Positions 699 to 16,197 are shown, counted from the first letter of the stretch. The stretch is 32,000 nucleotides of DNA from Candidatus Saccharimonadota bacterium (GCA_027925325.1 AP027133.1:540001-572000); one strand, 5' to 3'. Numbers and translations: made by a program. The notes: generated by a model from the sequence alone, not told the origin.

Positions 699-992
699 AT
701 GGAAAAAGAAAATTTTTCTTGGGATGAAAAAAGAAAGATCTGAGAAAAACAATACGGCAATAGATTAACAGGGTATGATATTTTTGGTCGATTTGTTGGA
801 AGATGCGGTCTTGAGGTTTATCATATTCTTCCTAAATCAAGGGGTGGAAAAACAGTAATTGAAAATGCAATAATTTTGAGTCCAGCTTCGAATCGAGAAA
901 AAGGAGAAAAATTACACGGAATTATAAATAAAAAATATTTTCAAGTATTAAATATCGGAAACGGAATTGGTAAGATAATTATCAATCAATAA
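699..992 (+). CDS. mini HNH-like protein, paralogue 1 (97 aa; His kept, preceding Asp replaced by Tyr)
   Basis: ATG at 699 lies 7 nt after AAGGAG (686-691). Translation: MEKENFSWDEKRKIWEKQYGNRLTGYDIFGRFVGRCGLEVYHILPKSRGGKTVIENAIILSPASNREKGEKLHG... This matches the HNH pattern [DE]V(D)HI.P.S.GG....N...L....N..K. One internal TGA=Trp. Stop TAA at 990-992. Confidence 0.75.
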
Positions 993-1016: not shown

Positions 1017-1343
1017 ATGGAAAGTAATATTGAAAGTGATATTTTTTCTAAAGCAGGAAAGAAAGCAATTTGAAAAAAACAATTTGGAACACATTTTACA
1101 GGATATGATTCTTTTGGCAGATTTGTTAGTCAATGCTGTTCTGATACAAAATGTTGCTCAAGTGTTTCTTTAGTTCTTCCAAAAACTTATGGAGGAAAAG
1201 AAATTTTTGAAAATGCAATGATTTTGCATCCAAAATCATTAGAAGAAAAAAGTGATAAATTGCACGGAATTATAAATAAAAAATATTTCCGAATTATAAA
1301 TAATCAAGATGGAACAGGCAGATTAATTGTTAATAATAAATAA
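1017..1343 (+). CDS. mini HNH-like protein, paralogue 2 (108 aa; catalytic His and Asn positions lost, probably inactive)
   Basis: It has the same RBS context as paralogue 1 (TTAAGGAGTTAAATAAATG). The N-terminus (AIWKKQFGTHFTGYDSFGRFV) and C-terminus (KLHGIINKKYFRIINN) are homologous to paralogue 1. The core reads SLVLPKTYGGKEIFENAMILHPKSLEEKSD, with V-L where D/Y-H is expected (1173-1178). Stop TAA at 1341-1343. Confidence 0.7.
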
Positions 1344-1467: not shown

Positions 1468-2853
1468 ATGAAAAAATACTATGCTATATTTTTGATTCCA
1501 CTAATTGGCGTTATGCCTATTAATAGAAATATTAGTGAAAAAAATATCTCAGCAGAACAAACTGTAATTACTGATTTTTCAGCAGGCGGGCATCATTCTG
1601 GAATAATTGTTGATACAGATAATGATTATTATGCTGACACTCTTTATATGTGAGGTGATAATGAATATGGAGAAATTGGAAATGGTAAGAATTTTGAAAC
1701 TGTTAGTACACCGCAAATAATAGATTATGATTTTAAAGGTAATTTAATCAATCTTGAGCTTGGAGTAATTCATTCTGGCGTTACAGTTGATTCTGATTAT
1801 GATGGATATGCCGATACCCTTTATATGTGAGGTGATAATGATTTTGGTCAAGTTGGAAATGGTACTAGCGGAGATGAAAATATGTCTGTTTCACCAGAAA
1901 AAATTACTCCTGAAGATCAAGACAATTGAAACGGTAATATCGTTGACTTATCATTATCAGCAATGAATACCTCTGTTAGTATCGATACAGATTATGATGG
2001 ATATGCTGATACCTTATATGTATGAGGATCAGATATGGATGGACAGATTGGAAATGAAAGCATTATAAATGTATTATATCCAACTATAATCACACCAAGT
2101 GAAAAAGATAGTTGAGAAGGTAATATAATTGATGTCTCTTTAGATGGTTATAGTAGCGGCGTTACAATTGATTCTGATTATGATGGATATGCTGATACAT
2201 TGTATATGTGAGGAAGAAATAATTATGGACAGATCGGAAATGATAGTTTTGCCAACACATATTTACCAACGATAATTACTCCTAAAAATCAAACTAATTG
2301 AAGTGGAAATATTATTGATTTTGATTTAGGAACAGAACATGCTGGACTAACAATTGATTCTGATTATGATGGATATGCCGATACCTTGTATATGTGAGGT
2401 GATAATTATTATGGACAATCAGGAAATGGAACCTTTGGACCTGATTATGAATACTTAACTACTCCGCAATTGATAAATTTTAATTTCAATGGAAATATTA
2501 TTGATATCTCTTTAGGTGGAACACATAGTGCTGTAATTACCGATTCAAATTCAGATAACTATGCTGACACTCTATATGTATGAGGAAATAGTTATTTTGG
2601 ACAAGTAGGGGATGGGACTTCAAGAATTACAAATCAAGAAACTCCGCTTATTATCACTCCTAAAGATCAAGATAATTGAAATGGTAATATCTTAAAATTA
2701 TCACTTGGTTTTAATACAACAGGAGTTGTAATTGATCAAAATAATGATAATTTAGGTGATACATTATATATGTGAGGACAAAATTCATTCTATGAATGTG
2801 GAAATCCCAATTTAGAAGTATATTATCCTGAAATCACAATAAATTTTTTATAA
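1468..2853 (+). CDS. secreted or membrane-anchored RCC1-like (regulator of chromosome condensation repeat) seven-bladed beta-propeller protein, 461 aa
   Basis: GGA-rich RBS (AAGAAGGA) upstream. The N-terminus is hydrophobic (MKKYYAIFLIPLIGVMPI). Seven repeats of ~60-65 aa each carry D.D.DGYADTLYMWG.N..GQ.GNG, the RCC1 signature W-G-x-N-x-x-G-Q-x-G. Every repeat Trp is encoded by TGA. Stop TAA at 2851-2853. Confidence 0.85.
1586..2790 (+). repeat. seven intragenic tandem coding repeats (period 179-195 nt) of the RCC1-like gene
   Basis: The core GATTCTGATTATGATGGATATGC[CT]GATAC..T.TATATGTGAGG recurs near 1607, 1786, 1981, 2167, 2353, 2539 and 2731. Copies 2, 4 and 5 are nearly identical at the DNA level. 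Confidence 0.85.
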
Positions 2854-3320: not shown

Positions 3321-3611
3321 TTATTTAACATTTATTTTAATTTTTCCATTCCTTTTATTTTTGATTTTAAATTTTTTTCCATTAACATAACCAGATAAAT
3401 TATCTGCTTTTTCTCAATTTGATAATGGATGCAATGGTTGAGCATTTTTTATTATTGTTTTTCCGCCTTTAGATTTAGGAAAAATATGATCAACTTCAAA
3501 ATTATCTTCAGTAATATTTCTTCCAAATAAATCAATTCCAGAATTAGAATTTCCATAATTTTCTTTTCAAATTGTATTTCTTTGACTTTTTTTAAAGTTA
3601 CGATTTGGCAT
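3321..3611 (-). CDS. mini HNH endonuclease, paralogue 3 (96 aa, canonical D-H...N...N motif intact)
   Basis: Reverse-strand translation: MPNRNFKKSQRNTIWKENYGNSNSGIDLFGRNITEDNFEVDHIFPKSKGGKTIIKNAQPLHPLSNWEKADNLSGYVNGKKFKIKNKRNGKIKINVK. The D-H pair lies at 3486-3491. RBS GGGGTG/AAAGGGG is just upstream (3614-3622). Length is 291 nt = 97 codons including TAA. Confidence 0.8.
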
Positions 3612-3708: not shown

Positions 3709-5370
3709 ATGAAAGATTTTACTATTAGTAAAGGTTTTTCAATAGATTTGATTGCAAAAGATGATGATTATAAATTAATAAATTTAGGCAAAGAATTTAT
3801 TGAAAAATTAGAAGATGAATACAAAAAATATAAAGATAATTTAAAAAAAGAAATAAAAAAATTTGAAAAATATGCTCAAGATGAAAATGTATATTTCTCA
3901 CAAGAAAAATTATTAAAGAAATCACCATTAACAATTTTAAATGCACCTTGAGGAAGTGGGAAGACATACTTTATTGAATCATTTGCAAAGCATTTTATTG
4001 ATAAGGAAATAAAATTAAAAACCTTTAAAAAAATAATTATATTAGATGTTTGAAAATATTCAAATTCAAAAAAAATTCCAGATGAAATAATTTCAGAATT
4101 ATTTTCCATATTGATTAATAAAACTAGAAAAGAAAAATTAAAAGAAAATTTAAAAAAATTTTCAATTAATTTTTTTATAAATCCTTTTTTAGTATCATGG
4201 GCAAATTATTTTTTAAAAGCTAAAATTAAAGAAATTCAAATAAGCAAAAATGAATTAAACAAACTTGTAAACGATATTTCAAATGATATTGATCATACTT
4301 TAATAATATTTGACAATATTGAAAGAATAGGAAAATATTCTTGAGAAGTGATAAAAGCAATATTCAAAATTTCTCAAATTGACAAATTATGTTTTATTTT
4401 GCCAATGAATATTAATAAATTAAATGATAATGATAAATATATTGAATATCCAATTGAAAAATATATTGATTTGCCAATATTTAATTTCAAGCAAGATTAT
4501 CTATCTTTTTTAAGAAACAAAAATTTAAATGAAGATGAGGCAATTTTAATAAACAAAATATTAAATACTGAAAGAAATGGAGAAAAATTATCAATTAGAA
4601 AAGTAGAACAAAGATTTAGAAGTTTAAATATTTTAAATATAAATGATAAATATGAAAAAATAAAATTTATTTTAAAAAATATTTGACCTGTATATAATGA
4701 AGGAGATGATTATTTTAAAAAAGAAATTTTAGAATATCACTGTTTTTTTAAGGAAAAAAATTATATTTTTGAGGATTTTAAAAATATCATTTTTTCAAAT
4801 GAAGATTTGAAACAAAATAAATTTTTTAAATCAAAATATGAATCTATTAATAAATATTTAGATGATTTAATATTAAATTTAAGATCAGAGAAAATTGATT
4901 TAAAAAAAGACTGATTAGATATTTTTTCTAAAATTTATTCAGAAATAAATGGTATTTGAAAAAAGAATACCTTAACTAAAAATAATTTGGATAAAGAAAT
5001 AAAAGAGAAATTAAAAAAATTAGATATTATTGAAAAACGAGAAAATGAATTAAATTTAAATGACAATGAAAAAATTTTAAAAAATGGAGAAAAAATAAAT
5101 AATATAATTAAAATTAATTTTAATTTGCAGGAATTAAATAATATGATAAATTCATTACCCATTTATAGAAATAAATGATATTTGAGTGAAATAGAACGTT
5201 TAAAAGAATTAAAAAATGATTTTAAAAAATTAGAAAATAAAAATTCAAGTTATACAAATTTAGATATTATTAAAAGTTGGAATTTATTAAATTTTGATAA
5301 TATGTATGAAGATGAAAAAATCGTTAGATTAATAACAAAAAATATGATAGATAATTGAAATAAACAATAA
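3709..5370 (+). CDS. KAP-family P-loop NTPase, 553 aa
   Basis: Four ORF-track fragments (3709, 4111, 4348, 4987) share one frame and are joined by TGA=Trp. Walker A is LNAPWGSGKTYF (GSGKT at 3952-3966; the Trp TGA at 3949-3951 splits the P-loop in the standard-code track). A hydrophobic insert (FSINFFINPFLVSWANYFL) lies between the Walker motifs. Walker B is LIIFDNIER (4300-4326), the KAP-type hhhhDDLDR. The C-terminal half is long and K/N/E-rich. Stop TAA at 5368-5370. Confidence 0.8.
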
Positions 5371-6645: not shown

Positions 6646-8883
6646 CTATATTTTTTTATCTTTTAACTTTTTCTTAATCAAAAAATAACAAATTAAAATT
6701 ATGAAAACAATAAATAAAAAGAATGCTAATGATATTAAAATTATTGCTCAAATCGGAAATAAATTAAGATCATCAGGATAAATTGATTCTAATAAAAAGA
6801 TAATATCATTGTCATTAGAATATTTAATAAATTGATCATTTAATTTTGCAACTGAATCAGGATCGACAGATTGTGGTGAAAAATTTATACTTAAAAAATA
6901 AATCCCACAATATACTTCAAATATTAAATAATAATTATTAAAATCATCAGTAATTTCTGTATCAAAAGTAATTTCATTTTCTTCAATTTGATTTTGATTA
7001 GAAGATAAAGTATAATCAATCTCTTCTATTTCTAATTTAAGATTATCTTTATTATATAAAGATATATCAATAAATCTAGTTAGTTGATATGGATCATAAA
7101 TTTGATAACTTATAGTCAATATATTATTATCAACAGAACTATTTACATCATAAAGTTCCGGAAAGAATTCTCTAAAATCAAGATATTGTGGCTCCCATAT
7201 TTTTTCATCGTCTGAAACTTGAAAGTATAAATTATTTTGATACATTAAATCAAGATTTATATCAATTAAAAAAGAAGTATGACGAGGATAAGCTTGATCG
7301 GTTCATATTATTTCATTACTTGTACCATCTATTAAATTTATTGTATATTCAAAATAATCTTCATCTCGATAATCAATAAATCCTTTTTTTAGATAAAATC
7401 TTACTGAAGTTGTATCATCATTGCTATTTAATTGATAAAGATTACCACCACCGCAAACCATCGTCGGTTTTTCAGGCAAAATTAAACTATAATCTTGTTC
7501 AGATTCAACTTTTCCATAATATCAAATATCTAATAAATCTTCATCACCGGCATTATTTTGATTAATTTGATAAATCATTTCTGTATCATTTGAATATTTC
7601 TTAAGAAAAATAAAATTGACATAGATTGATGGATCAATTAACTCATTTTGATAAAATCCTGAATAATCTAAATTAAGAAAAGTATAAAACGCATCATTCA
7701 CAAATAATAAGCCAACTTCTATTTTCTCCTTCTCATTAATAGCATTCATAATATCAAAATTTAAATTAAATAAATAAATATTTTCCCCATGTATTGTTAC
7801 ACTATTATTAATTGCTGGTAAAATGCTATATGAAGTATAACTTTCAGAATTATTAATATTATCATAGACATTTATGTCATTAAAAATTATTGAGTGAAAA
7901 TAAATATTGGTTCTTAATTGAAAATCAAGATCATAATCATTTATTAAACAACCAATAAATGGATTATAAAATATTCCATAAAAATGATCAGAAGGATTTT
8001 CTAATAAAAAATGATCTTGATTTGAATTCTTAATATTAAATTCATTATTTGCGAAAGTAATATTATTTATATATATTGTGTCAAAAATATTTTCAGGATG
8101 AGCTTCTCAATTACCATGTCATCAATCATCTCCTTGTGTTTGCAATTTTGCAGATCCAATAAGCGAAATAACAGGAGTTACATTTTGATCATATAGATTA
8201 ATTTGATTATCAATAAAATTTATATGATCAAAATATGAAGCAATTCAAATAGAGCCATCAAAATTATTCATTATCAATCCAATTGTTGCAATATTAACCG
8301 TTCAATCATTTAATTTATAAGAAAAACTATCAGAAATATTAGAACTATAAATATTAAAAATTAAATTTTGGTAGGTTGTATTAAAAATATTTACATTATA
8401 AAGAAAAACATGATTTATATTTCCAAAAGGAAACATAAAATTATCAAAATTTAAATCGGCGATTGTAACATCATAAATTTCTTGAAAAAATGAATAATAC
8501 TTTATTCCGTCATGCTCTTCAGTAACATCAAAAGTTGTAGTATCAAAAACTGCTGTTGCATCACGATTATAGAGAGTATATCCATTTCCATCAATAAACA
8601 TATGCTCTAATGATAATCCTGTAATATCATCATTTTCTGAATCTGAAAAGTCAACATTAGATTGTAATTCATAAACGCCATCTTGAGGAACGTTTCTTAA
8701 ATCATCAATAAATTCTTGCGAACTTATCGAATTTTCTTCATATTTTGCGAATTGTTCATCTTCCTCAATTTTAATATTTTCCTCAATATTAATATTTAAA
8801 TCATTATTATTAAACTGACTAAAAAAAAATCCAGTAAATAATGATAAAAATAAACTAAAAACAATTATAATTTTAAATTTCAT
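6646..8883 (-). CDS. surface protein, 745 aa: N-terminal signal peptide, probable beta-helix-like repeat region, C-terminal TM anchor
   Basis: Three ORF-track fragments (6748-7245, 7522-7749, 8302-8883) are in one frame. All gaps were checked and contain only TGA. N-terminus MKFKIIIVFSLFLSLFTGFFFS. It carries an FIDGNGYTLYN motif and many N/I/F-rich ~20-25-aa turns, typical of right-handed beta-helix adhesin-like proteins. The C-terminus WAIILISLAFFLFIVFIILICYFLIKKKLKDKKI is a TM helix plus basic tail. Stop TAG at 6646-6648. Confidence 0.8.
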
Positions 8884-8893
8884 TGCATATAAA

Positions 8894-10753
8894 TTATATA
8901 TAACTAATTTCTAAATTTTCTTTGTCATAATGCTTTATTCCATTTCAAGTATCCTTATTACGATAATGTCAAAATGTTATTCCATTCATAAAATCTTTAT
9001 TAAGATTTAATTTTATCTCATTTGTTAGTTTTTTATCAATAGTATAAAAAACGCCTGAAGATTTTATGAAATTAAATCAATATCTTGAATCTAAATAATT
9101 TTCAATATTTTTTATTTGATCTAATCTATATCCATATTGATAAAAATAATCTCATAAAGAAATTTCTTCATTTTTATTTAAACTATACTTATTTAATTTT
9201 CAACTATAATTTGCTTCCCCATTTAAATATGAAGTAAAAAAATCTCCTGAAGATTTTGGTGAATTAAAAATAATAGAATTTTCTTTTAAATTATTTAATC
9301 TATTTTCTACTAAATCATTAGCCAAATTAAATATTCCTTCTTCAAAATCCTTTGTACCTTTTAAAAATAATTTATAATTTTTGCTTATAGAGCCAAAAAT
9401 CATTTCTCCTATTCCTGAACCAGTCTCAATAAAATCTGATAAAAATGCTGTTCTTTGATTAGATTTTGATTTTTCTAAAATTTCATTAAAAGAAGTAGTT
9501 TTTTGTGGATATTCATTATCAGAAATTACTGCATATGGATTAATATTACAAGTACTAGAAAAATTAGAATTTGGCATACTTTCAAGATAAATATTAGAAT
9601 TATGAGTTGAAGGATTTAATGAAAATGTAAATTTTAAAGATAATGGATATTTTTCTGGATAAGGACTTTTTATATAAATAGGATCATATTGAATTGAATT
9701 ATTACCATTTGTAGTTTCGATTACATAATATTGAAAAGGAGCTAAAAATAATTTATGCTCAAAGATAATATTTTTATCATCCATATATGAATTCGCAGTA
9801 ATTAAAAAATTATGAATATCAATAGGTTCAGTTTTGGCCATTTCTTTATTAGAATAAAATTTTGATACAAAAAATTTTCCTGATTTTGAAATTATAAATC
9901 CATCCTCTTCAATTATCGAAATAACTAAATTATCAGTTTCATTTTTATTAATTGCAAATTTATCAGGATATAATGGCGATTCTAAAATATGAAAACTTAC
10001 AAAATTTACTTCTTTTAAATCATTTATAAATGTATCTTTTACATTTACATCATTTATTATTGTATTATTTGAAAACTTATTTATTGGATAAAGATAAAAA
10101 TCATAATTTAATGGCAATTGATACATTTTTGATTGTGGAGATTCACTTTTATAAATTCCAATAATTCAAATAATGGAATTATTTATTACATCATTTCCAT
10201 ACCTAAAATTTGTTTTGATTTCTTCAATTTTGCTTAAATTTAAATTAAAATCTTCTCTTGTTGATAAATTATTTAAATTATTTCTTTCTAAATGAACTCT
10301 TTCTATCATTGTATAACCATTTAAAATAGTAGAAATTGGATAAGTTGTATAAATATCTAAATTTATAATGATGATAAATTCTTCCTTATTTAATCATTCA
10401 ATTTTTGAAACAAAATAAAATTTAAATAAATTATTTTGATTGATAATAATGTAATTTAAATTGCTAATACGTTCTTTTTTTTGATTAAGATCTTCTTCTA
10501 ATAAATAATCATTAATATTTAATTTTAATTTTGCTTGATAGGTATTATTTATAATTAAATCTTTTTCAATTCAATATCCATTATCTAAATTTTTAAAATC
10601 AAATTGATCATTAAAAATAACATAATTAATAAATTCATCTCGTTTTTTAAATGATTCATCTTTTGATTCTCCTGGAAAATCAATAACATTTTTATTAGAG
10701 ATATTATTTGTATCTCAAAAAATATTGTTTTTTGGTATTAAAATTTTTATCAT
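8894..10753 (-). CDS. Y1: hypothetical protein, 619 aa, paralogue of the Y2 core (no signal peptide or TM)
   Basis: ATG at 10753 is preceded by AGAGGG. The frame is open to TAA at 8894-8896 (codon-checked, TGA=Trp). The N-terminus MIKILIPKNN... and residues ~27-143 are nearly identical to Y2. The C-terminal WKLNKYSLN...LWDYF.QYGY...FWHYRNKDTWNGI block is shared with Y2. Confidence 0.8.
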
Positions 10754-10765
10754 GTTTTCCCTCTT

Positions 10766-13018
10766 CTATTTAATCCTTACTCATTTAGTAGTAAATAGGC
10801 CAGCTGAAATATTATTTTGTTCAGATGAATTTTTTGATGAATATGGAATTAATTTACCAACTTCATGATGTGATTGTCCTATTCTTATTATATTTTCTTC
10901 TAAATCATATCCATCAATATAACCGACAACATCAGAATCATCATTTATTCCTTCTGATTTATTATTACTTCCAACATAAGATTCTGCTAATTTATGTTTA
11001 TGGCATTTAACATTTCCTGAAGAAATAGTATTTAATTGACTTGTAATTGCCTGAATTGTTGTCATTCCTTCAGTAAAATTTTGATTATATTCATGCAATT
11101 TTATTCAAGTTCCCAAATATTTATCATTTAAATTTGGATCATAATTATTTATAAATTCTTTAATCGTTCCAATTACTTCATCTAGCGGATTTTTTTGTAT
11201 AAAATCAATTTCTGCATTTTCCAATTCATAATTATTAATTCCATTTCAAATTCGTTTATTTCGATAATGCCAAAAAAATATTCCACTTGTGAAATCTTTA
11301 TCAATCTTTAATTTAATTTCTTCCGATAAATTTCTATCAACCGATTTAAAAATATCGGTTGCTTTTAAATAATTAAATCAGAATCTTGAATTTAAGTAAT
11401 TTTTGATATTTTCTGTTTTATTTAATTTATAACCATATTTATGAAAATAATCTCATAAAGATTTTTCTTCTTCTATATTCAAACTATATTTATTTAATTT
11501 TCAACTATAAGTTTCATTATTTAATAAATATGAAATAAATAAATCTCCATTTATTTTACTTGAATTATCATATTTAAGATTATTCATATATTTTGAAATT
11601 TTACGTTTTTCTAATACGTTTGCTATTTGTGGAAATTTTTTTTTATTAAGCATTTGTGAATAAGCTTCTGATTTAGCATCTTTTAAAACATTTAGATATG
11701 ATATTGTTCTCTTTGGATATTCATTATCTTTTATTATTGAGTATTGATTAATATTTCAATTTGGATCGATTTCAATTTGACTTGAGAATTTTTCAAAATA
11801 AATACTACTTGTGTGAATTAAAGGATTTAAAGAAAAATTAAATCTTAAATGATCTTTACGTAATGCATTATTCCATCCTAATTGTAAAGGATCATAATCA
11901 ATTGAAGATTCACCATTAGTTGTTTCAATTTTATAAACTTGATAAGGAGCTAAATATAGTTTATGCTCAAAAATTACATTTTTATAAGATAAATATGAAT
12001 TAGATTGAAGTGAAAAATCATGAATAGATATTCCATCACTTCATCCCATTTCCCTATCTAAATCAAATCTTTTAATAAATAATTTTCCTCCTCTTAATTC
12101 AAAATTATTTTCATCTATATTTGATAGGGTGATAATAAAATCTGAATTAGAATCACTTGAGTTAACTCTCTTAATATTAATTGCATTAGGATATAGCGGT
12201 GATTCTAAAAGATAAAATCCGACAAATTTATCTTCTGTTTCTCCTCCACTAGTTAAACCAGTATCATTAAATAAAGCATTTTTTGTTTCAATATCATTTA
12301 TCATAATTTTTATGCTATCACCATTTTCTTGACCATTGGTTTTATAAATTGGATAAAGATAGTAATCATAATTTAATGGTAATGTCCCAATTTTTGTTGT
12401 CGGTGTTTCTTCTTTACATAATCCAATTATCCATATAATTGAATTACTAATTATGTTATCGCCGTATTTAAAATCAACAGGAATTTTTTCCACTTTGCTT
12501 AATTCAAAAGAAAAATCTTCTCTTATTTGTAATTTATCTAAATCTGTTCTTTTTAAATGAGCTCGATCAATCATTGCATCACCATCTAAAATAGTAGAAA
12601 TAGGATAAGTTGTATAAATATCTAAATTTATCATAATGATAAATTCTTCGTTATTTAATCATTCAATTTTTGAGACAAAATAAAATTTAAATGAATTATT
12701 TTGATTGATAATGATGTAATTTAGATTGCTAATACGTTCTTGTTTTTGATTAAAATCTTCTTCTAATAGGTAATCATTAATATTTAATTTCAATGTTGCT
12801 TGATAGGTATTATTTATAATTAAATCTTTTTCAATTCAATATCCATTATCTAAATTTTTAAAATCAAATTGATCATCAAAAATAACATAATTAATAAATT
12901 CATCTCGTTTTTTTAATGATTCATCTTTTGATTCTCCTGGAAAACTTATCGCATGTTTTTCTATATTATCATCTGAAAATCAATAAGCATTGTTTTTAGG
13001 AATTAAAATTTTTACCAT
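10766..13018 (-). CDS. Y2-X': hypothetical protein, 750 aa; Y-family core fused in frame to a second copy of the X C-terminal domain
   Basis: ATG at 13018. ORF-track fragments 12041-12634 and 10781-11098 are in the same frame. I checked every codon in 11099-12040 and 12635-13018 and found no TAA/TAG. The Y-type C-terminal block ends ...FWHYRNKRIWNGINNYELENAEIDFI. It continues QKNPLDEVIGTIKEFINNYDPN...AGLFTTKWVRIK, which is homologous to X residues ~75-209. Stop TAG at 10766-10768. Confidence 0.75.
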
Positions 13019-13020
13019 TA

Positions 13021-13650
13021 TTATTTAATCCTTACTCATTTAACGGTAAATAATCCGGCTGCAAAATTATTTTGTTCAGATGAATTTTTTAATGAATATG
13101 GAATTAATTTACCAACTTCATCATGCGATTGTCCTATTCTTACTATGTTTCCTTCTGAATCATAACCATCGATATAACCGACAACATCAGAATCATCATT
13201 TGTCCCTTCAGATTTATCATTACTTCCAACATATGCTTCTGCTAATTTATGCGTATGACCCTTAACACTTCCTGAAGAAATAGTATTTGCCTCATTTGTA
13301 ACTATTTGAATTGTTGTCATTCCTTCAATAAAATTTTGATTATATTCATGCAATTTTACTCAAGTTCCTAAATATTTATCATTAATATTTGGATCATAAT
13401 CATTTATAAATTCCTTAATTGTTCCGATTGCTTCATCAATTAAAAAAATTTCTTCTGATAAAATGATGTATTTATGATTATCTTTTGAAATTAAGATCTC
13501 TTTATTTGCTTTATTTAATTTTAAAAAATATTCTAATTTATGATTTGTTAATTTAAAAATTGAATTAACGTCATCGTTTTTTACATTCTTAATTTCTCAA
13601 TCCGAAAGTAAGAAAGATTGTTTATTTTGATAATTAATTTTAATCTTCAT
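13021..13650 (-). CDS. X: hypothetical protein, 209 aa, with a conserved His/Glu-rich C-terminal domain (HxHKLAE...GQSHxEVGKLIPYS)
   Basis: ATG at 13650 lies 9 nt after AAGGAG (13663-13668 on the reverse strand). The frame is open with TGA=Trp. It ends ...AGLFTVKWVRIK, TAA at 13021-13023, 2 nt before the Y2 start. The ORF-track fragment 13036-13353 is its C-terminal part. Confidence 0.8.
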
Positions 13651-15020: not shown

Positions 15021-15096
15021 TGGTGGTTCAGGACGGAATCGAACCGCCGACACAGGGATCTTCAATCCCTTGCTCTACCGACTGAGCTACTGAACC
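15021..15096 (-). tRNA. tRNA-Phe (GAA)
   Basis: Reverse complement GGTTCAGTAGCTCAGTCGGTAGAGCAAGGGATTGAAGATCCCT...GGTTCGATTCC...CTGAACCACCA. Anticodon loop TTGAAGA. CCA encoded. Confidence 0.95.
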
Positions 15097-15106
15097 TAAA
15101 AACAAC

Positions 15107-15182
15107 TGGCGGTCCTGACGGGATTTGAACCCGCGATCTCCTCTGTGACAGAGAGGCATGATGACCACTTCACTACAGGACC
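15107..15182 (-). tRNA. tRNA-Asp (GUC)
   Basis: Reverse complement GGTCCTGTAGTGAAGTGG...CCTCTCTGTCACAGAGG...GGTTCAAATCC...CAGGACCGCCA. Anticodon GTC. Confidence 0.95.
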
Positions 15183-15183
15183 T

Positions 15184-15260
<77 letters not shown>

Positions 15261-15268
15261 ATAAATAA

Positions 15269-15361
15269 TGGTGGAGATGGAGGGATTCGAACCCCCGCAC
15301 GACTTGCGCCGTCTCTCGGTTTTCAAGACCGATCCCTTCAACCAGACTTGGGTACATCTCC
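15269..15361 (-). tRNA. tRNA-Ser (UGA), long variable arm
   Basis: Reverse complement GGAGATGTACCCAAGTCTGGTTGAAGGGATCGGTCTTGAAAACCGA + variable arm + GGTTCGAATCC...CTCCACCA. Anticodon TGA. Length 93 nt. Confidence 0.95.
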
Positions 15362-15369
15362 ATTTGATG

Positions 15370-15446
15370 TGGTGGTCCGTGCTGGACTTGAACCAGCGAC
15401 CAACCGGTTATGAGCCGGTGGCTCTAACCAACTGAGCTAACGGACC
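15370..15446 (-). tRNA. tRNA with CAU anticodon, probably tRNA-Ile2 (lysidine-modified)
   Basis: Reverse complement GGTCCGTTAGCTCAGTTGGTTAGAGCCACCGGCTCATAACCGGT...GGTTCAAGTCC...GGACCACCA. It is called Ile rather than Met only from its position in the conserved Met-Ile-Ser-fMet order. Confidence 0.7.
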
Positions 15447-15452
15447 AAATAT

Positions 15453-15529
15453 TGGTAGCGGAAGAGGGACTTGAACCCCCGACCCATTGAATATGAACCA
15501 ATTGCTCTAACCAACTGAGCTATTCCGCC
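15453..15529 (-). tRNA. elongator tRNA-Met (CAU)
   Basis: Reverse complement GGCGGAATAGCTCAGTTGGTTAGAGCAATTGGTTCATATTCAAT...GGTTCAAGTCC...CCGCTACCA. Anticodon CAT. Confidence 0.8.
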
Positions 15530-15535
15530 TTATAA

Positions 15536-15611
15536 TGGTGGAGCGAACGAGATTCGAACTCGCGACCCCATGCGTGCAAAGCATGTGCTCTACCAACTGA
15601 GCTATCACCCC
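15536..15611 (-). tRNA. tRNA-Ala (UGC)
   Basis: Reverse complement GGGGTGATAGCTCAGTTGGTAGAGCACATGCTTTGCACGCATG...GTTCGAATC...CGCTCCACCA. G3:U70 pair present. Anticodon TGC. Confidence 0.95.
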
Positions 15612-15614
15612 ACA

Positions 15615-15691
15615 TGGTCGGAAAGACAAGACTTGAACTTGCGACCCCTGCGTCCCAAACGCAGTGCTCTGCCAAACTGAGCTACTTTCCG
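15615..15691 (-). tRNA. tRNA-Pro (UGG)
   Basis: Reverse complement CGGAAAGTAGCTCAGTTTGGCAGAGCACTGCGTTTGGGACGCAG...GTTCAAGTC...TTTCCGACCA. Anticodon TGG. Confidence 0.95.
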
Positions 15692-15696
15692 ATATT

Positions 15697-15773
15697 TGGC
15701 GCGCCTGATAGGAGTCGAACCCACAACCCTCTGATCCGTAGTCAGATACTCTATCCAGTTGAGCTACAGGCGC
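15697..15773 (-). tRNA. tRNA-Arg (ACG)
   Basis: Reverse complement GCGCCTGTAGCTCAACTGGATAGAGTATCTGACTACGGATCAGA...GGTTCGACTCC...CAGGCGCGCCA. Anticodon ACG. Confidence 0.95.
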
Positions 15774-15791
15774 CTTTATATAAAATAAAAT

Positions 15792-15876
15792 TGGTGCGGG
15801 TGAAGGGACTTGAACCCTTACGTCCGAAGACACTAGATCCTAAGTCTAGCGTGTCTGCCAATTCCACCACACCCGC
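15792..15876 (-). tRNA. tRNA-Leu (UAG), long variable arm
   Basis: Reverse complement GCGGGTGTGGTGGAATTGGCAGACACGCTAGACTTAGGATCTAG + variable arm + GGTTCAAGTCC...CACCCGCACCA. Anticodon TAG. Confidence 0.95.
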
Positions 15877-15880
15877 AAAT

Positions 15881-15956
15881 TGGTGCCGTCGATAGGAATC
15901 GAACCTACGACCCACTGATTACAAGTCAGTTGCTCTGCCTGCTGAGCTACAACGGC
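15881..15956 (-). tRNA. tRNA-Thr (UGU)
   Basis: Reverse complement GCCGTTGTAGCTCAGCAGGCAGAGCAACTGACTTGTAATCAGT...GGTTCGATTCC...GACGGCACCA. Anticodon TGT. Confidence 0.95.
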
Positions 15957-15959
15957 TAA

Positions 15960-16035
15960 TGGTGGGGCATATAGGACTTGAACCTATGACCTCCTGCTTG
16001 TAAGGCAGATGCTCTCCCAACTGAGCTAATACCCC
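15960..16035 (-). tRNA. tRNA-Val (UAC)
   Basis: Reverse complement GGGGTATTAGCTCAGTTGGGAGAGCATCTGCCTTACAAGCAGA...GGTTCAAGTCC...TGCCCCACCA. Anticodon TAC. Confidence 0.95.
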
Positions 16036-16042
16036 AAAATAT

Positions 16043-16118
16043 TGGTGACCCATACGGGATTTGAACCCGTGCATGCTAGGATGAAAACCTAGTGTGTTAA
16101 CCTCTTCACCAATGGGCC
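16043..16118 (-). tRNA. tRNA-Glu (UUC)
   Basis: Reverse complement GGCCCATTGGTGAAGAGGTTAACACACTAGGTTTTCATCCTAG...GGTTCAAATCC...ATGGGTCACCA. Anticodon TTC. Confidence 0.95.
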
Positions 16119-16122
16119 TAAA

Positions 16123-16197
16123 TGGCGCTCCGGAGAGGATTCGAACCTCCGACCAACTGGTTAACAGCCAGCTGCTCTACCACTGAGCTACCAGAGC
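16123..16197 (-). tRNA. tRNA-Asn (GUU)
   Basis: Reverse complement GCTCTGGTAGCTCAGTGGTAGAGCAGCTGGCTGTTAACCAGT...GGTTCGAATCC...CGGAGCGCCA. Anticodon GTT. It is first in the transcription order of the cluster. Confidence 0.95.

What the first reader, a model, noticed from the sequence alone, without database searches (positions are those of the whole stretch)
8894..13650. Tandemly duplicated X/Y gene module with an in-frame Y-X fusion: best candidate for an undescribed system
Reading the minus strand from 13650 to 8894 gives three genes. X is 209 aa, Y2 is 750 aa and Y1 is 619 aa.

- Y1 and Y2 are paralogues.
- The last 135 aa of Y2 are a second copy of the C-terminal domain of X. By my manual count 112 of 135 residues are identical. 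Both copies end AGLFT[VT]KWVRIK.
- So the locus is an [X][Y] unit duplicated in tandem with a period of 2255-2265 nt. The second X lost its first ~75-85 codons and fused in frame to the preceding Y.

A fusion of this kind argues that the X domain and Y act together. The genes are packed tightly, with gaps of 2 and 12 nt. An AAGGA Shine-Dalgarno-like sequence sits inside the conserved last codons of X, which suggests translational coupling.

None of the three proteins has a signal peptide or TM helix. I cannot place any of them in a named family with confidence. The block sits between core genes (ychF on one side, the VOC protein and tRNA cluster on the other), which looks like an accessory insertion.
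Basis: partly seen in the sequence, partly recalled or inferred. Interest (0 to 1): 0.88.

Follow-up and report, generated by a model that had tools for sequence, protein, structure and literature searches.

The report
Domesticated phage tail-knob gene pair
Two of the three genes are duplicated copies of the tail-tip "knob" protein that phi29-type viruses use to punch through a cell membrane; woodlouse gut symbionts keep them intact in a tiny genome with no other virus gene nearby, which suggests the bacteria now use this piece of a virus themselves.

Summary
Under genetic code 4 the minus strand encodes X (209 aa), Y2 (750 aa) and Y1 (619 aa). Y1 and Y2 are paralogues. Y2 ends in a second copy of the X C-domain (112 of 135 residues identical), and the repeat offset is 2255 nt.

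The window is Candidatus Hepatoplasma scabrum. Y1 and Y2 can be placed: they are full-length homologues of the phi29 gp9 tail knob (distal tube protein), by PHROG 2248, phmmer to 5FB4 and Foldseek to 5FB5 (E 1.5e-25). Their nearest outside relative lies in a 9.8-kb, code-4, phi29-like phage contig.

No capsid, connector, polymerase or ATPase gene accompanies them in Hepatoplasma. X-Y2-Y1 plus a membrane-anchored protein Z is syntenic and intact in six distinct Hepatoplasma assemblies, with dN/dS below 1. It is therefore an old, maintained capture, neither an assembly artefact nor a decaying prophage.

Y1 keeps the knob's long membrane loop. Y2 has lost it and carries the X domain instead. Y2 and Y1 differ sharply between near-identical strains, and Z varies from one to three copies.

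Best reading (inferred): a heteromeric knob acting on a membrane in an antagonistic interaction. The X-domain fold and the function remain unproven.

The parts
13021..13650 (-). X, 209 aa (HPPSJP_5020). Residues 1-70 form a small beta domain; residues 71-209 form the conserved C-domain with an invariant HxH motif (H132, H134).
   Evidence: Table-4 ORF. Exact match to the Ca. H. scabrum protein, with homologues only in Hepatoplasma. Alignment A2. AF2 pLDDT is 74-81 for residues ~17-60 and below 50 for the C-domain. SD-like TAAGGAG lies 13 nt upstream.
13024..13440 (-). X C-domain (residues 71-209), the unit that is repeated at the end of Y2.
   Evidence: 112 of 135 residues identical to the Y2 C-terminus. 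No Pfam or PDB sequence match. dN/dS is 0.17-0.27 between species.
10766..13018 (-). Y2, 750 aa (HPPSJP_5010): tail-knob core (residues 1-611) fused to the X' domain.
   Evidence: PHROG 2248 at 9e-12. phmmer to phi29 gp9 5FB4 at 7e-7. AF2 core pLDDT mostly above 90. Foldseek to 5FB5 at 1.5e-25, 4EO2 at 6e-17 and 8EGS at 3e-15.
10769..11185 (-). X' domain of Y2 (residues 612-750), fused in frame; HxH at residues 673-675.
   Evidence: The fusion is present in all Y2 orthologues of 746-751 aa.
11564..11704 (-). Y2 shortened, charged segment (residues 439-485) at the position of the knob's membrane-active L loop.
   Evidence: 47-51 aa with a best 19-residue hydropathy near 0 in the Y2 clade. The median in 104 outside relatives is 71 aa and 1.48.
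8894..10753 (-). Y1, 619 aa (HPPSJP_5000): unfused tail-knob paralogue.
   Evidence: 52.8% identical to Y2 over the full length. PHROG 2248 at 5e-11. tblastn to tail/tail-knob proteins of Clostridium and Bacillus picoviruses. A profile search finds 451 relatives.
9263..9496 (-). Y1 L-loop-like segment (residues 420-497), retained at full length, Gly-rich and amphipathic.
   Evidence: 77-78 aa, Gly+Ala+Ser fraction 0.21-0.23, best 19-residue hydropathy 0.8-1.3 in the Y1 clade. It aligns with the Gly- and hydrophobic-rich loops of the nearest relatives. It is the fastest-evolving part between strains, with dN 0.4-0.5 and omega about 1.
6646..8883 (-). Z, 745 aa (HPPSJP_4990): predicted type I surface protein (hydrophobic segments at residues 1-24 and 704-741), last gene of the block.
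   Evidence: Homologues occur only in Hepatoplasma, always next to X-Y2-Y1, in 1-3 copies. No Pfam, PHROG or PADLOC match.
12551..13440 (-). High-identity tract of repeat unit 1 (X C-domain plus Y2 codons ~35-155). Its partner is 10286-11185 in unit 2. This is a gene-conversion tract specific to Ca. H. scabrum.
   Evidence: 85-99% nt identity here against 47-74% elsewhere, at an offset of 2255 nt. Y1/Y2 alignment columns 51-150 are 92% identical within H. scabrum against 62-72% between orthologues. X_C versus Y2_C is 81% in H. scabrum against 63-69% in the other genomes.

Best explanation
SHOWN
- Y1 and Y2 are duplicated, full-length homologues of the phi29 gp9 tail knob (distal tube) protein.
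- Their nearest outside relative is the knob of a phi29-like phage that uses code 4, a code used by mollicutes.
- In Hepatoplasma only the knob gene is found in the 20-32 kb examined around the locus. It is accompanied by X and by the surface-anchored protein Z.
- The block is syntenic, intact and under net purifying selection across species.
- The Y2+Y1 segment is far more diverged between near-identical strains than its flanks.
- Y1 keeps the long loop that forms the membrane-penetrating helix barrel in phi29. Y2 has lost it and carries the X domain at its C-terminus.

INFERRED (mechanism)
- The module is an exapted phage tail tip. The phi29 knob is built as three gp9 dimers. Y1 and Y2 would therefore form a (Y1-Y2)x3 tube. 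Y1 would supply three membrane-inserting loops. Y2 would supply three X' domains at the distal, C-terminal end, possibly as one trimeric, metal-bound (HxH) tip.
- Free X would dock further copies through its own 70-residue N-terminal beta domain, the part that the Y core replaces in the fusion.
- The complex would bind and perforate a lipid membrane, which is directly exposed on wall-less cells. It would act in a strain-specific antagonistic interaction, as a minimal tailocin-like pore former against competing mollicutes. Z, variable and present in 1-3 copies, would be the surface partner (immunity or receptor).
- Lacking signal peptides, the proteins would be released by lysis, as tailocins are.

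How likely
- About 0.8 that the module is phage-derived and functionally maintained.
- About 0.4 for a heteromeric membrane-acting complex.
- About 0.2-0.25 for the specific tailocin-like use.
For: - Family and fold.
- Phage origin: L011 encodes polymerase, head protein, knob, connector and terminase. L016 carries the nearest relative P0023 together with Phage_connector, Podovirus_Gp16 and DNA_pol_B_2, at 24% G+C, with 34 in-frame TGA against 6 TGG.
- Only the knob is present: proteins of L011 and L016 other than the knob find nothing in the window, L001, L002, L018 or L019. No phage structural family is found in the other window ORFs.
- Maintenance: all ORFs are intact in six distinct assemblies at ~20% G+C. 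dN/dS is 0.24-0.64.
- Strain-level divergence: Av and Tokyo2021 flanks are 98-100% identical while Y2+Y1 are 75-93%. ychF is 0.99/0.96/0.87 identical where Y2 is 0.81/0.79/0.78 and Y1 is 0.76/0.75/0.77. The loop windows evolve at omega ~0.8-1.06.
- Loop retained in Y1 and lost in Y2.
- phi29 knob as three dimers, with L loops forming a bilayer-thick helix barrel: PMC6542822. The C-terminal part of gp9 is the distal part: PMC11476376.
- The fusion replaces exactly the X N-domain.
- Z topology and copy-number variation.
- Two Hepatoplasma species co-occur in one host sample: PMC10928387.
Against: - No assembly, membrane activity, export or expression was tested.
- X, Y1 and Y2 have no signal peptide, and no lysis or release gene was identified.
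- The X-domain fold is unknown (AF2 pLDDT below 50), so its role as a binding tip is conjecture.
- The X domain is the most conserved part, not the most variable, which is unusual for a specificity determinant.
- The Y1 loop is less hydrophobic than in phage relatives.
- The neighbourhood holds defence-like genes: a KAP NTPase, HNH proteins, and in one strain a methylase and GmrSD. That fits an anti-phage role equally well.
- The rest of the Hepatoplasma genome was not searched here for other virion genes.
Confidence: 0.4

Rival explanations
1. Anti-phage module built from a captured structural gene. Cytoplasmic Y1/Y2 would co-assemble with, or compete with, the knob protein of an infecting phi29-like mollicute phage for its lower collar. 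Tails would then be non-infectious, because Y2 lacks the membrane loop and carries a bulky C-terminal domain. Z would block adsorption at the surface (superinfection exclusion).
For: - None of X, Y1 or Y2 has a signal peptide.
- Loss of the loop in Y2 is what a dominant-negative subunit would look like.
- The collar-binding N-terminal domain is well conserved and is homogenised between the paralogues in H. scabrum.
- The rapid strain-level divergence suggests an arms race.
- Defence-like genes lie nearby: KAP NTPase, HNH proteins, and in L018 a methylase plus GmrSD.
- Code-4 phi29-like phages exist, and Hepatoplasma keeps CRISPR-Cas9 (PMC10928387).
Against: - No match to any PADLOC defence model.
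- The hypothesis does not explain why a loop-bearing Y1, a separate X with its own adaptor domain, and a conserved X domain are all kept.
- The variable parts are the distal loop and a mid-domain surface, not the N-terminal collar-binding domain where a contest with a phage partner would be expected.
Confidence: 0.25
2. Host-interaction device. The knob complex, held at the symbiont surface by Z or released, would attach to or perforate the membranes of isopod hepatopancreas microvilli, for adhesion or nutrient access.
For: - Hepatoplasma lives on digestive-gland surfaces and depends on host nutrients (PMC10928387).
- Y1 retains a membrane-active loop.
- The conserved X domain would fit a conserved host ligand.
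- Z is a large surface-anchored protein that evolves fast.
Against: - The strong divergence of Y between strains from the same host species (Av and Tokyo2021, both from Armadillidium vulgare) is hard to explain by a host target.
- There is no export signal.
- The family search listed no hit from contigs the size of the Ca. H. vulgare or Ca. Tyloplasma genomes, so the module may be missing from these isopod symbionts. This was not proven.
Confidence: 0.12
3. Part of a larger phage-like element whose other genes lie elsewhere in the genome or are too divergent to recognise. Examples would be a dispersed particle-producing system, or a helper-dependent satellite that supplies its own tail tip.
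For: - Only 20-32 kb around the locus was examined.
- The published 'no detectable phage' statement rests on keyword searches of annotation (PMC3942034), and that search missed these genes too.
- phi29-like satellites that borrow another phage's tail are known (Phanie; PMC11476376).
Against: - No capsid, connector, collar, ATPase or polymerase homologue lies near the locus in any of five Hepatoplasma loci.
- The genomes are ~0.6 Mb with ~550 genes and extensive collinearity.
- The fixed chromosomal position across species argues against a mobile element.
Confidence: 0.1
4. Functionless remnant of an ancient phage DNA insertion that is decaying slowly.
For: - No function is demonstrated.
- dN/dS (0.35-0.62) is higher than in the core genes (0.19-0.28).
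- The Y1 loop is less hydrophobic than in phage relatives, and Y2 has lost it.
Against: - Four ORFs of 209-750 codons stay uninterrupted in six distinct assemblies at ~20% G+C, despite dS of 0.5-0.9 between species.
- Large parts of Y evolve at omega 0.06-0.2.
- Very small, streamlined genomes retain ~7 kb for the block.
- The in-frame fusion is preserved everywhere.
Confidence: 0.05

Closest known systems
phi29 gp9 tail knob / distal tube protein family (PDB 5FB4/5FB5; Pfam PF20934 phi29_gp9_C; PHROG 2248). Relatives include phage C1 gp12 (4EO2) and the Andhra tail knob (8EGS).
   Same: Same length class and the same fold from N- to C-terminus. The C-terminal motif ...SRY(W/Y)FN(F/Y)...GIT(F/I)WHYR... 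is conserved. Y1 has a long Gly-rich loop at the position of the pore-forming L loop.
   Different: The genes are chromosomal and lie in no phage genome. They are duplicated into two diverged paralogues, one of which has lost the loop and gained a 139-residue C-terminal domain. They are inherited vertically at a fixed locus.
Two-protein tail knobs of phi29-like phages of Gram-negative hosts (Phanie, Astrid, DU_PP_III), as described in PMC11476376
   Same: The knob is built from two different gene products, and extra, putatively ligand-binding domains are added to the knob protein.
   Different: In those phages one gene is split into N- and C-terminal parts and Ig-like domains are inserted, within a complete phage genome. 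Here the whole gene is duplicated, the added domain is C-terminal and not recognisably Ig-like, and no phage genome surrounds it.
Domesticated phage-tail machines (R- and F-type tailocins, extracellular contractile injection systems, type VI secretion); comparison drawn from general knowledge
   Same: Phage tail genes without head or replication genes are kept in a bacterial chromosome under selection. Their products lack signal peptides, and the loci tend to vary between strains.
   Different: Those systems derive from long contractile or flexible tails and comprise a dozen or more genes with tube, sheath or tape-measure, baseplate and lysis functions. Here only a podovirus knob (two paralogues), one small partner and a membrane protein are present. 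My searches found no description of a knob-derived system.
Mycoplasma pulmonis phage P1 (short-tailed, ~12 kb dsDNA, with DNA polymerase and GP16 encapsidation protein; PMC7466169)
   Same: It shows that phi29-like podoviruses infect mollicutes. The code-4 contig L016 that carries the nearest relative of Y is of this kind.
   Different: P1 is a complete virus. P1 itself was not compared with Y here.

Membership tests
phi29 gp9 tail knob / distal tube protein family | Significant sequence match to family profiles or members | tested here: met
   PHROG 2248 'tail protein': Y1 5e-11, Y2 9e-12. phmmer of Y2 to 5FB4: 7e-7. tblastn to picovirus tail/tail-knob genes: down to 5e-5. The Y profile finds 451 relatives of ~600-750 aa.
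phi29 gp9 tail knob / distal tube protein family | Pfam PF20934 (phi29_gp9_C) above threshold | tested here: inconclusive
   Precomputed hits are listed for Y2 itself (P0006) and for several Y1 orthologues. My own hmmscan of Y1, Y2 and four orthologues returned no PF20934 hit, even at E up to 10.
phi29 gp9 tail knob / distal tube protein family | Full-length gp9 fold | tested here: met
   AF2 model of Y2 from 113 sequences; core pLDDT mostly above 90. Foldseek: 5FB5_A E 1.5e-25, TM (target-normalised) 0.63-0.68, ~650-664 columns; 4EO2 6e-17; 8EGS_Y 3e-15; the next hit has E above 0.05.
phi29 gp9 tail knob / distal tube protein family | Long hydrophobic pore-forming L loop near the distal end | tested here: inconclusive
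   Y1 clade: full length (77-78 aa) but only moderately hydrophobic (0.8-1.3, against a family median of 1.48). Y2 clade: not met (47-51 aa, charged, ~0).
phi29 gp9 tail knob / distal tube protein family | Encoded in a phi29-like phage genome beside connector/collar genes | tested here: not met
   No connector, capsid, collar, ATPase or polymerase homologue in the window or in four orthologous loci. Outside relatives do sit in that context.
phi29 gp9 tail knob / distal tube protein family | Hexameric tube (three dimers) attached to a lower collar | not testable with these tools
   Needs multimer modelling or biochemistry. The phi29 arrangement is taken from PMC6542822.
Domesticated phage-tail device (tailocin-like) | Tail genes without head, packaging or replication genes at the locus | tested here: met
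   for 20-32 kb around the locus only. The whole genome was not searched.
Domesticated phage-tail device (tailocin-like) | Maintained by selection across species at a fixed locus | tested here: met
   Synteny in six distinct assemblies. ORFs intact. dN/dS 0.24-0.64, with large regions at 0.06-0.2.
Domesticated phage-tail device (tailocin-like) | Release (lysis) genes and killing activity against related strains | not testable with these tools
   No holin- or lysin-like gene was recognised in the window. Activity needs experiments.
Integrated prophage or prophage remnant | Integrase or recombinase, attachment repeats, further phage genes, signs of decay | tested here: not met
   No integrase or other phage family found among the ten neighbouring window ORFs scanned with Pfam and the eight scanned with PHROGs. 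No stop codons or frameshifts. The block lies next to a 14-tRNA cluster, but flanking repeats were not searched for specifically.
T4 gp10/gp12-type trimeric C-terminal domain, or tail-fibre module (candidate for the X domain) | Significant sequence or structure match | tested here: not met
   No Pfam or PDB sequence hit. The fold searches used a low-confidence model and are insignificant, although gp10 C-terminal-domain-like proteins rank first in both libraries (BFVD E 3e-3; PDB 2FKK E 0.4; TM ~0.16). tblastn of the consensus hits the N-terminus of a Twortvirinae 'putative tail fiber' at E 0.06. These are leads only.
Known anti-phage defence systems (PADLOC) | Match to a defence-system protein model | tested here: not met
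   No hit for X, Y1, Y2 or Z at E up to 0.1.

The most novel reading that the evidence does not exclude
Wall-less bacteria have turned the tail knob of a podovirus into a free-standing, self-sufficient membrane-perforating machine. It would be a (Y1-Y2)x3 heterohexamer with a trimeric X tip, with no sheath, tube or baseplate. It would be used as a strain-specific weapon or conduit, and the variable array of Z surface proteins would act as immunity or receptor determinants. This would be the first domesticated device derived from a short-tailed phage, and the smallest phage-tail-derived machine known.
Probability: 0.2. Interest if true: 0.85.

Novelty: new variant of a known kind. Interest (0 to 1): 0.58.

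Why it matters
phi29-type phages are known as strictly lytic viruses (stated for staphylococcal picoviruses in PMC9710869; otherwise general knowledge). Their genes are therefore not expected to sit in bacterial chromosomes. One of the Hepatoplasma genome papers states that no phage genes are detectable.

Finding the membrane-penetrating tail knob duplicated, remodelled and kept for a long time in ~0.6-Mb symbiont genomes would be a new example of phage-part domestication, from a phage type not previously known to be domesticated. It would occur in organisms whose exposed membrane makes a bare knob a plausible stand-alone tool.

The locus also offers a natural experiment on the knob itself. 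One paralogue has the pore loop and the other lacks it. There are covalent and non-covalent versions of the same accessory domain. The two paralogues may mirror the 'three dimers' of the phi29 knob.

For isopod symbiosis, the locus marks a strain-variable region that may decide which Hepatoplasma strain holds the gut gland, or how these bacteria resist their phages.

Tried and rejected
- Table-11 ORF calling breaks the genes at TGA, so I switched to table 4.
- Pfam scans of X, Y1, Y2, Z and orthologues gave nothing usable, although precomputed PF20934 hits exist.
- A profile of the nine Hepatoplasma Y proteins against PDB missed 5FB4, which the single sequence found.
- The X domain had no PDB hit by sequence or by profile.
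- The AF2 model of X from 8 sequences was poor (pLDDT 45). The two fold searches on it are not significant and I treat them as leads only.
- The Twortvirinae 'tail fiber' N-terminus match is borderline (E 0.06-0.3). It is not supported by PHROG profiles for X, so I do not rely on it.
- HMMs of the X domain and of Z found nothing in 11 phage or MAG contigs that carry knob relatives.
- The first genome-contig scan found nothing. The second found only two phage-like MAG contigs and missed Hepatoplasma, probably because Trp is TGA in the search pattern. No claim about rarity in genomes is based on these scans.
- The promoter and terminator scan is uninformative at this A+T content: 88 sites found against 101 expected.
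- PADLOC gave no hit.
- The afdb50 library was unavailable.
- My first pairing of Z 'orthologues' between Av and Tokyo2021 was wrong. Av Z corresponds to the second Tokyo copy. This was corrected by the DNA alignment.
- M23/LytM peptidase (HxxxD...HxH), considered by analogy with phi29 gp13, was rejected for X. There is no Pfam hit, the motif spacing does not fit, and mollicutes have no peptidoglycan.

Full report
**1. What is in the sequence**

The window has about 20% G+C, and standard-code ORFs break up at TGA. With table 4 the minus strand carries four tightly packed genes:
- X, 13021-13650, 209 aa
- Y2, 10766-13018, 750 aa
- Y1, 8894-10753, 619 aa
- Z, 6646-8883, 745 aa

The gaps between them are 2, 12 and 10 nt. 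AAGGA lies inside the last codons of both X and Y2, and GAGGG precedes Y1.

Y1 and Y2 align over their whole length at 52.8% identity. The last 135 residues of X and Y2 share 112 identities. Homology to X begins at X residue 71 and Y2 residue 612, so the Y core takes the place of the first 70 residues of X. The two repeat units align at an offset of 2255 nt.

X, Y1 and Y2 have no transmembrane-like segment. Z has hydrophobic segments at residues 1-24 and 704-741, followed by a Lys-rich tail, which is the layout of a surface-anchored type I protein.

**2. Whose genome, and how old is the arrangement**

The proteins are identical to HPPSJP_4990 to HPPSJP_5020 of the complete metagenome-assembled genome of Candidatus Hepatoplasma scabrum, a mollicute from the woodlouse Porcellio scaber (PMC10928387).

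The same X-Y2-Y1-Z order lies between the tRNA cluster/TrkA side and ychF in:
- Ca. H. crinochetorum Av (L001)
- Tokyo2021 (L002)
- strain Ps (L019)
- an ENA contig (L018) and a JGI contig with identical X, Y2, Y1 and Z proteins (L017)

A 7.2-kb Logan contig (L003) holds the four genes in the same order but has no flanking genes.

Every Y2 orthologue (746-751 aa) carries the fused X domain, and every genome also has a separate X. The duplication and the fusion therefore predate the split of these species and cannot be an assembly artefact. All of these ORFs are uninterrupted.

The word-indexed family search listed no hit from contigs the size of the Ca. H. vulgare (662 kb) or Ca. Tyloplasma litorale (616 kb) genomes. 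The exhaustive search returned a single Hepatoplasma representative and gives no sources. The block may therefore be confined to the scabrum/crinochetorum clade. This is an inference from absence of hits.

**3. What Y is**

- Both Y proteins match PHROG 2248, 'tail protein'.
- Y2 matches the phi29 distal tube protein gp9 (5FB4) by phmmer at 7e-7.
- Y1 matches tail or tail-knob genes of Clostridium and Bacillus picoviruses by tblastn.
- A profile of the nine Hepatoplasma sequences, searched against 1.84 billion representatives, finds 451 relatives, mostly 600-750 aa.
- An AF2 model of Y2 built on 113 of these has a confident core. It superposes on phi29 gp9 over ~660 columns (E 1.5e-25), then on the knob proteins of phages C1 and Andhra, and on nothing else.

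Y is a full-length tail-knob protein. One inconsistency remains. Precomputed tables list Pfam PF20934 (phi29_gp9_C) for Y2 and several Y1 orthologues, but my own Pfam scans did not reproduce it.

**4. Where Y came from**

- The relatives sit in small phage genomes. L011 (11.9 kb) encodes a DNA polymerase, a major head protein, the knob, an upper collar connector and a terminase.
- The nearest relative of all, P0023 (E 1e-33, aligned end to end), lies on L016. This is a 9.8-kb contig with Phage_connector, Podovirus_Gp16 and DNA_pol_B_2, at 24% G+C. It has 34 in-frame TGA against 6 TGG codons, so it is a phi29-like phage that uses the mollicute code. Short-tailed ~12-kb phages with polymerase and GP16 are known from Mycoplasma pulmonis (P1; PMC7466169).
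- In Hepatoplasma only the knob has a counterpart. The polymerase, head, connector, collar, fibre and ATPase proteins of L011 and L016 find nothing in the window or in four orthologous loci.
- Pfam scans of ten and PHROG scans of eight other window ORFs, those nearest the locus or lacking an obvious assignment, give only HNH, RCC1 and superoxide dismutase, all cellular or defence-type families.
- The composition of the four genes (19-25% G+C, Trp mostly TGA) is that of the host.
- Leclercq et al. reported no detectable phage genes in Hepatoplasma, and Kawato et al. do not mention this locus.

**5. How the two paralogues differ**

In phi29 the long L loop of gp9 leaves the tube after ejection and forms a largely hydrophobic helix barrel about as tall as a bilayer (PMC6542822). 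I measured the corresponding segment in three groups:

| Group | Length (aa) | Gly+Ala+Ser fraction | Best 19-residue hydropathy |
|---|---|---|---|
| 104 outside relatives (median) | 71 | 0.36 | 1.48 |
| Y1 clade | 77-78 | 0.21-0.23 | 0.8-1.3 |
| Y2 clade | 47-51 | 0.06-0.15 | about 0 |

Y1 thus keeps a full-length, Gly-containing, amphipathic segment. In Y2 the hydrophobic part is gone and the segment is charged. Y2 instead has the X' domain at its C-terminus. The C-terminal part of gp9 is the distal part of the knob (PMC11476376).

The same cryo-EM paper describes the phi29 knob as six gp9 arranged as three dimers. That arrangement is the natural template for a (Y1-Y2)x3 hetero-hexamer. This step is inference.

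**6. What X is**

X homologues exist only in Hepatoplasma. Its C-domain is the best conserved part of the block (dN/dS 0.17-0.27) and has 72 invariant positions, including an HxH pair.

It has no Pfam or PDB sequence match. AF2 could not fold it from the shallow alignment. Only the N-terminal beta domain reaches pLDDT of about 78.

Fold searches with this poor model are not significant, although T4 gp10 C-terminal-domain-like baseplate proteins rank first in both libraries. The last ~50 residues also resemble the N-terminus of a Twortvirinae 'tail fiber' at E 0.06. I record these as leads pointing to a phage fibre or baseplate-type module, not as findings.

The architecture is an N-terminal domain that is dispensable once the C-domain is tethered covalently to Y. 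That is the pattern of an adaptor plus a functional head. This is inference.

**7. Evolutionary signals**

- dN/dS between Ca. H. scabrum and Ca. H. crinochetorum is 0.35 (X), 0.41 (Y2), 0.57 (Y1) and 0.62 (Z). The flanking core genes are at 0.19-0.28. Synonymous sites are near saturation, so these ratios are upper estimates.
- Strains Av and Tokyo2021 are 98-100% identical in the flanks and in X. The segment that holds Y2 and Y1 is only 75-93% identical at the nucleotide level. Tokyo2021 also has an extra Z copy inserted after Y1.
- Across five members of the crinochetorum complex, Y2 and Y1 stay at 70-82% identity whatever the background (ychF 0.87-0.99). This is the pattern of old, exchanged or rapidly diversifying alleles.
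- Within Y, the loop region evolves fastest (dN 0.4-0.5, omega ~0.8-1.06). A Y1 mid-domain window reaches omega 1.5-1.7; the windows are small and noisy. The N- and C-terminal fold elements sit at omega 0.06-0.2.
- Z occurs in one to three copies of several types that are shared between strains, and once upstream of X.
- In Ca. H. scabrum a ~0.9-kb tract spanning the X C-domain and Y codons ~35-155 has been homogenised between the two repeat units. It is 85-99% identical at the nucleotide level against 47-74% elsewhere. Y1/Y2 alignment columns 51-150 are 92% identical against 62-72% between orthologues.

**8. Interpretation**

Shown: a phage tail-knob gene was captured, duplicated, remodelled and kept, together with X and Z, at one chromosomal site. 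The genes are constrained yet strongly strain-variable.

Most likely (about 0.4): the products assemble into a heteromeric knob that binds and perforates a lipid membrane. A bare knob is plausible as a stand-alone tool only where the target has no wall, as in mollicutes.

The strain-level divergence, the absence of signal peptides (as in tailocins) and the variable array of Z proteins fit a tailocin-like weapon with Z as immunity or receptor (about 0.2-0.25).

The main rival (0.25) is an anti-phage decoy that poisons tail assembly of infecting phi29-like phages. It is supported by the cytoplasmic prediction, the loop-less Y2 and the defence-like neighbours: a KAP NTPase, HNH genes, and in one strain a methylase and GmrSD.

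Host-membrane interaction, a dispersed phage-like element and a dead remnant are less likely, for the reasons given under the rival explanations. None of the mechanisms was tested. The experiments and computations that would decide between them are listed under next steps.

**9. Verdict**

- The claim that the proteins belong to no named family is wrong for Y.
- The locus is best filed as a new variant of a known kind: phage-tail domestication, here from a phi29-type knob.
- Interest is moderate to high, because phi29-like genes are unexpected in chromosomes and because the paralogue pair dissects the knob's functional parts. It is held back by the unknown X fold and the lack of any functional evidence.

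Noticed in passing
L001 7500-11900 versus L002 (Ca. H. crinochetorum Av versus Tokyo2021): A sharply bounded divergence island. Y2+Y1 are 75-93% identical at the nucleotide level, while the flanks (including X and the shared Z copy) are 98-100% identical. This suggests allele replacement or diversifying selection at the knob genes.
   Followed up: partly
L002 11923-14118; L018 5502-12187; L019 7001-9205 and 14188-16377: Z is a copy-number-variable family with 1-3 copies per strain at 60-84% identity. Types are shared between strains, and one copy lies upstream of X in strain Ps. The pattern resembles variable surface-protein or orphan-immunity arrays.
   Followed up: partly
window 699-992 (+), 1017-1343 (+), 3321-3611 (-): Three small paralogous proteins of 96-108 aa. 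Two have weak HNH endonuclease matches in Pfam or PHROGs. The middle one has Cys-rich substitutions and no hit.
   Followed up: partly
window 3709-5370 (+): A 553-aa P-loop protein (GSGKT motif) with no Pfam hit here. A 546-aa protein at the corresponding position in strain Ps is listed with PF07693 KAP_NTPase. In L018 the same neighbourhood also holds an HNH protein, a DNA methylase and GmrSD, so this looks like a defence-island-like region next to the knob block.
   Followed up: partly
window 1468-2853 (+): A 461-aa protein with an N-terminal hydrophobic segment and RCC1-like beta-propeller repeats (Pfam 1e-55). It belongs to the RCC1-like family that Kawato et al. noted in Hepatoplasma.
   Followed up: no
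window 15021-16197 (-): A cluster of 14 tRNA genes forms the only G+C-rich (~50%) kilobase of the window. In Ca. H. crinochetorum, X starts directly after this cluster.
   Followed up: no
H. crinochetorum. Pfam did not confirm the VOC assignment.
   Followed up: no
L016 1-9842 (GCA_014845145.1, JACSEL010000076.1): A near-complete phi29-like phage contig that uses code 4 (34 in-frame TGA), at 24% G+C, with a 643-aa collagen-like protein upstream of the knob gene. It is probably a mollicute picovirus binned into a MAG. Its host is unknown.
   Followed up: partly
Y proteins (P0001-P0009) versus Pfam: Precomputed tables list PF20934 phi29_gp9_C for several Y proteins, but a direct hmmscan against the Pfam copy at hand returns no such hit, even at E up to 10. 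This is an unexplained discrepancy between resources.
   Followed up: no
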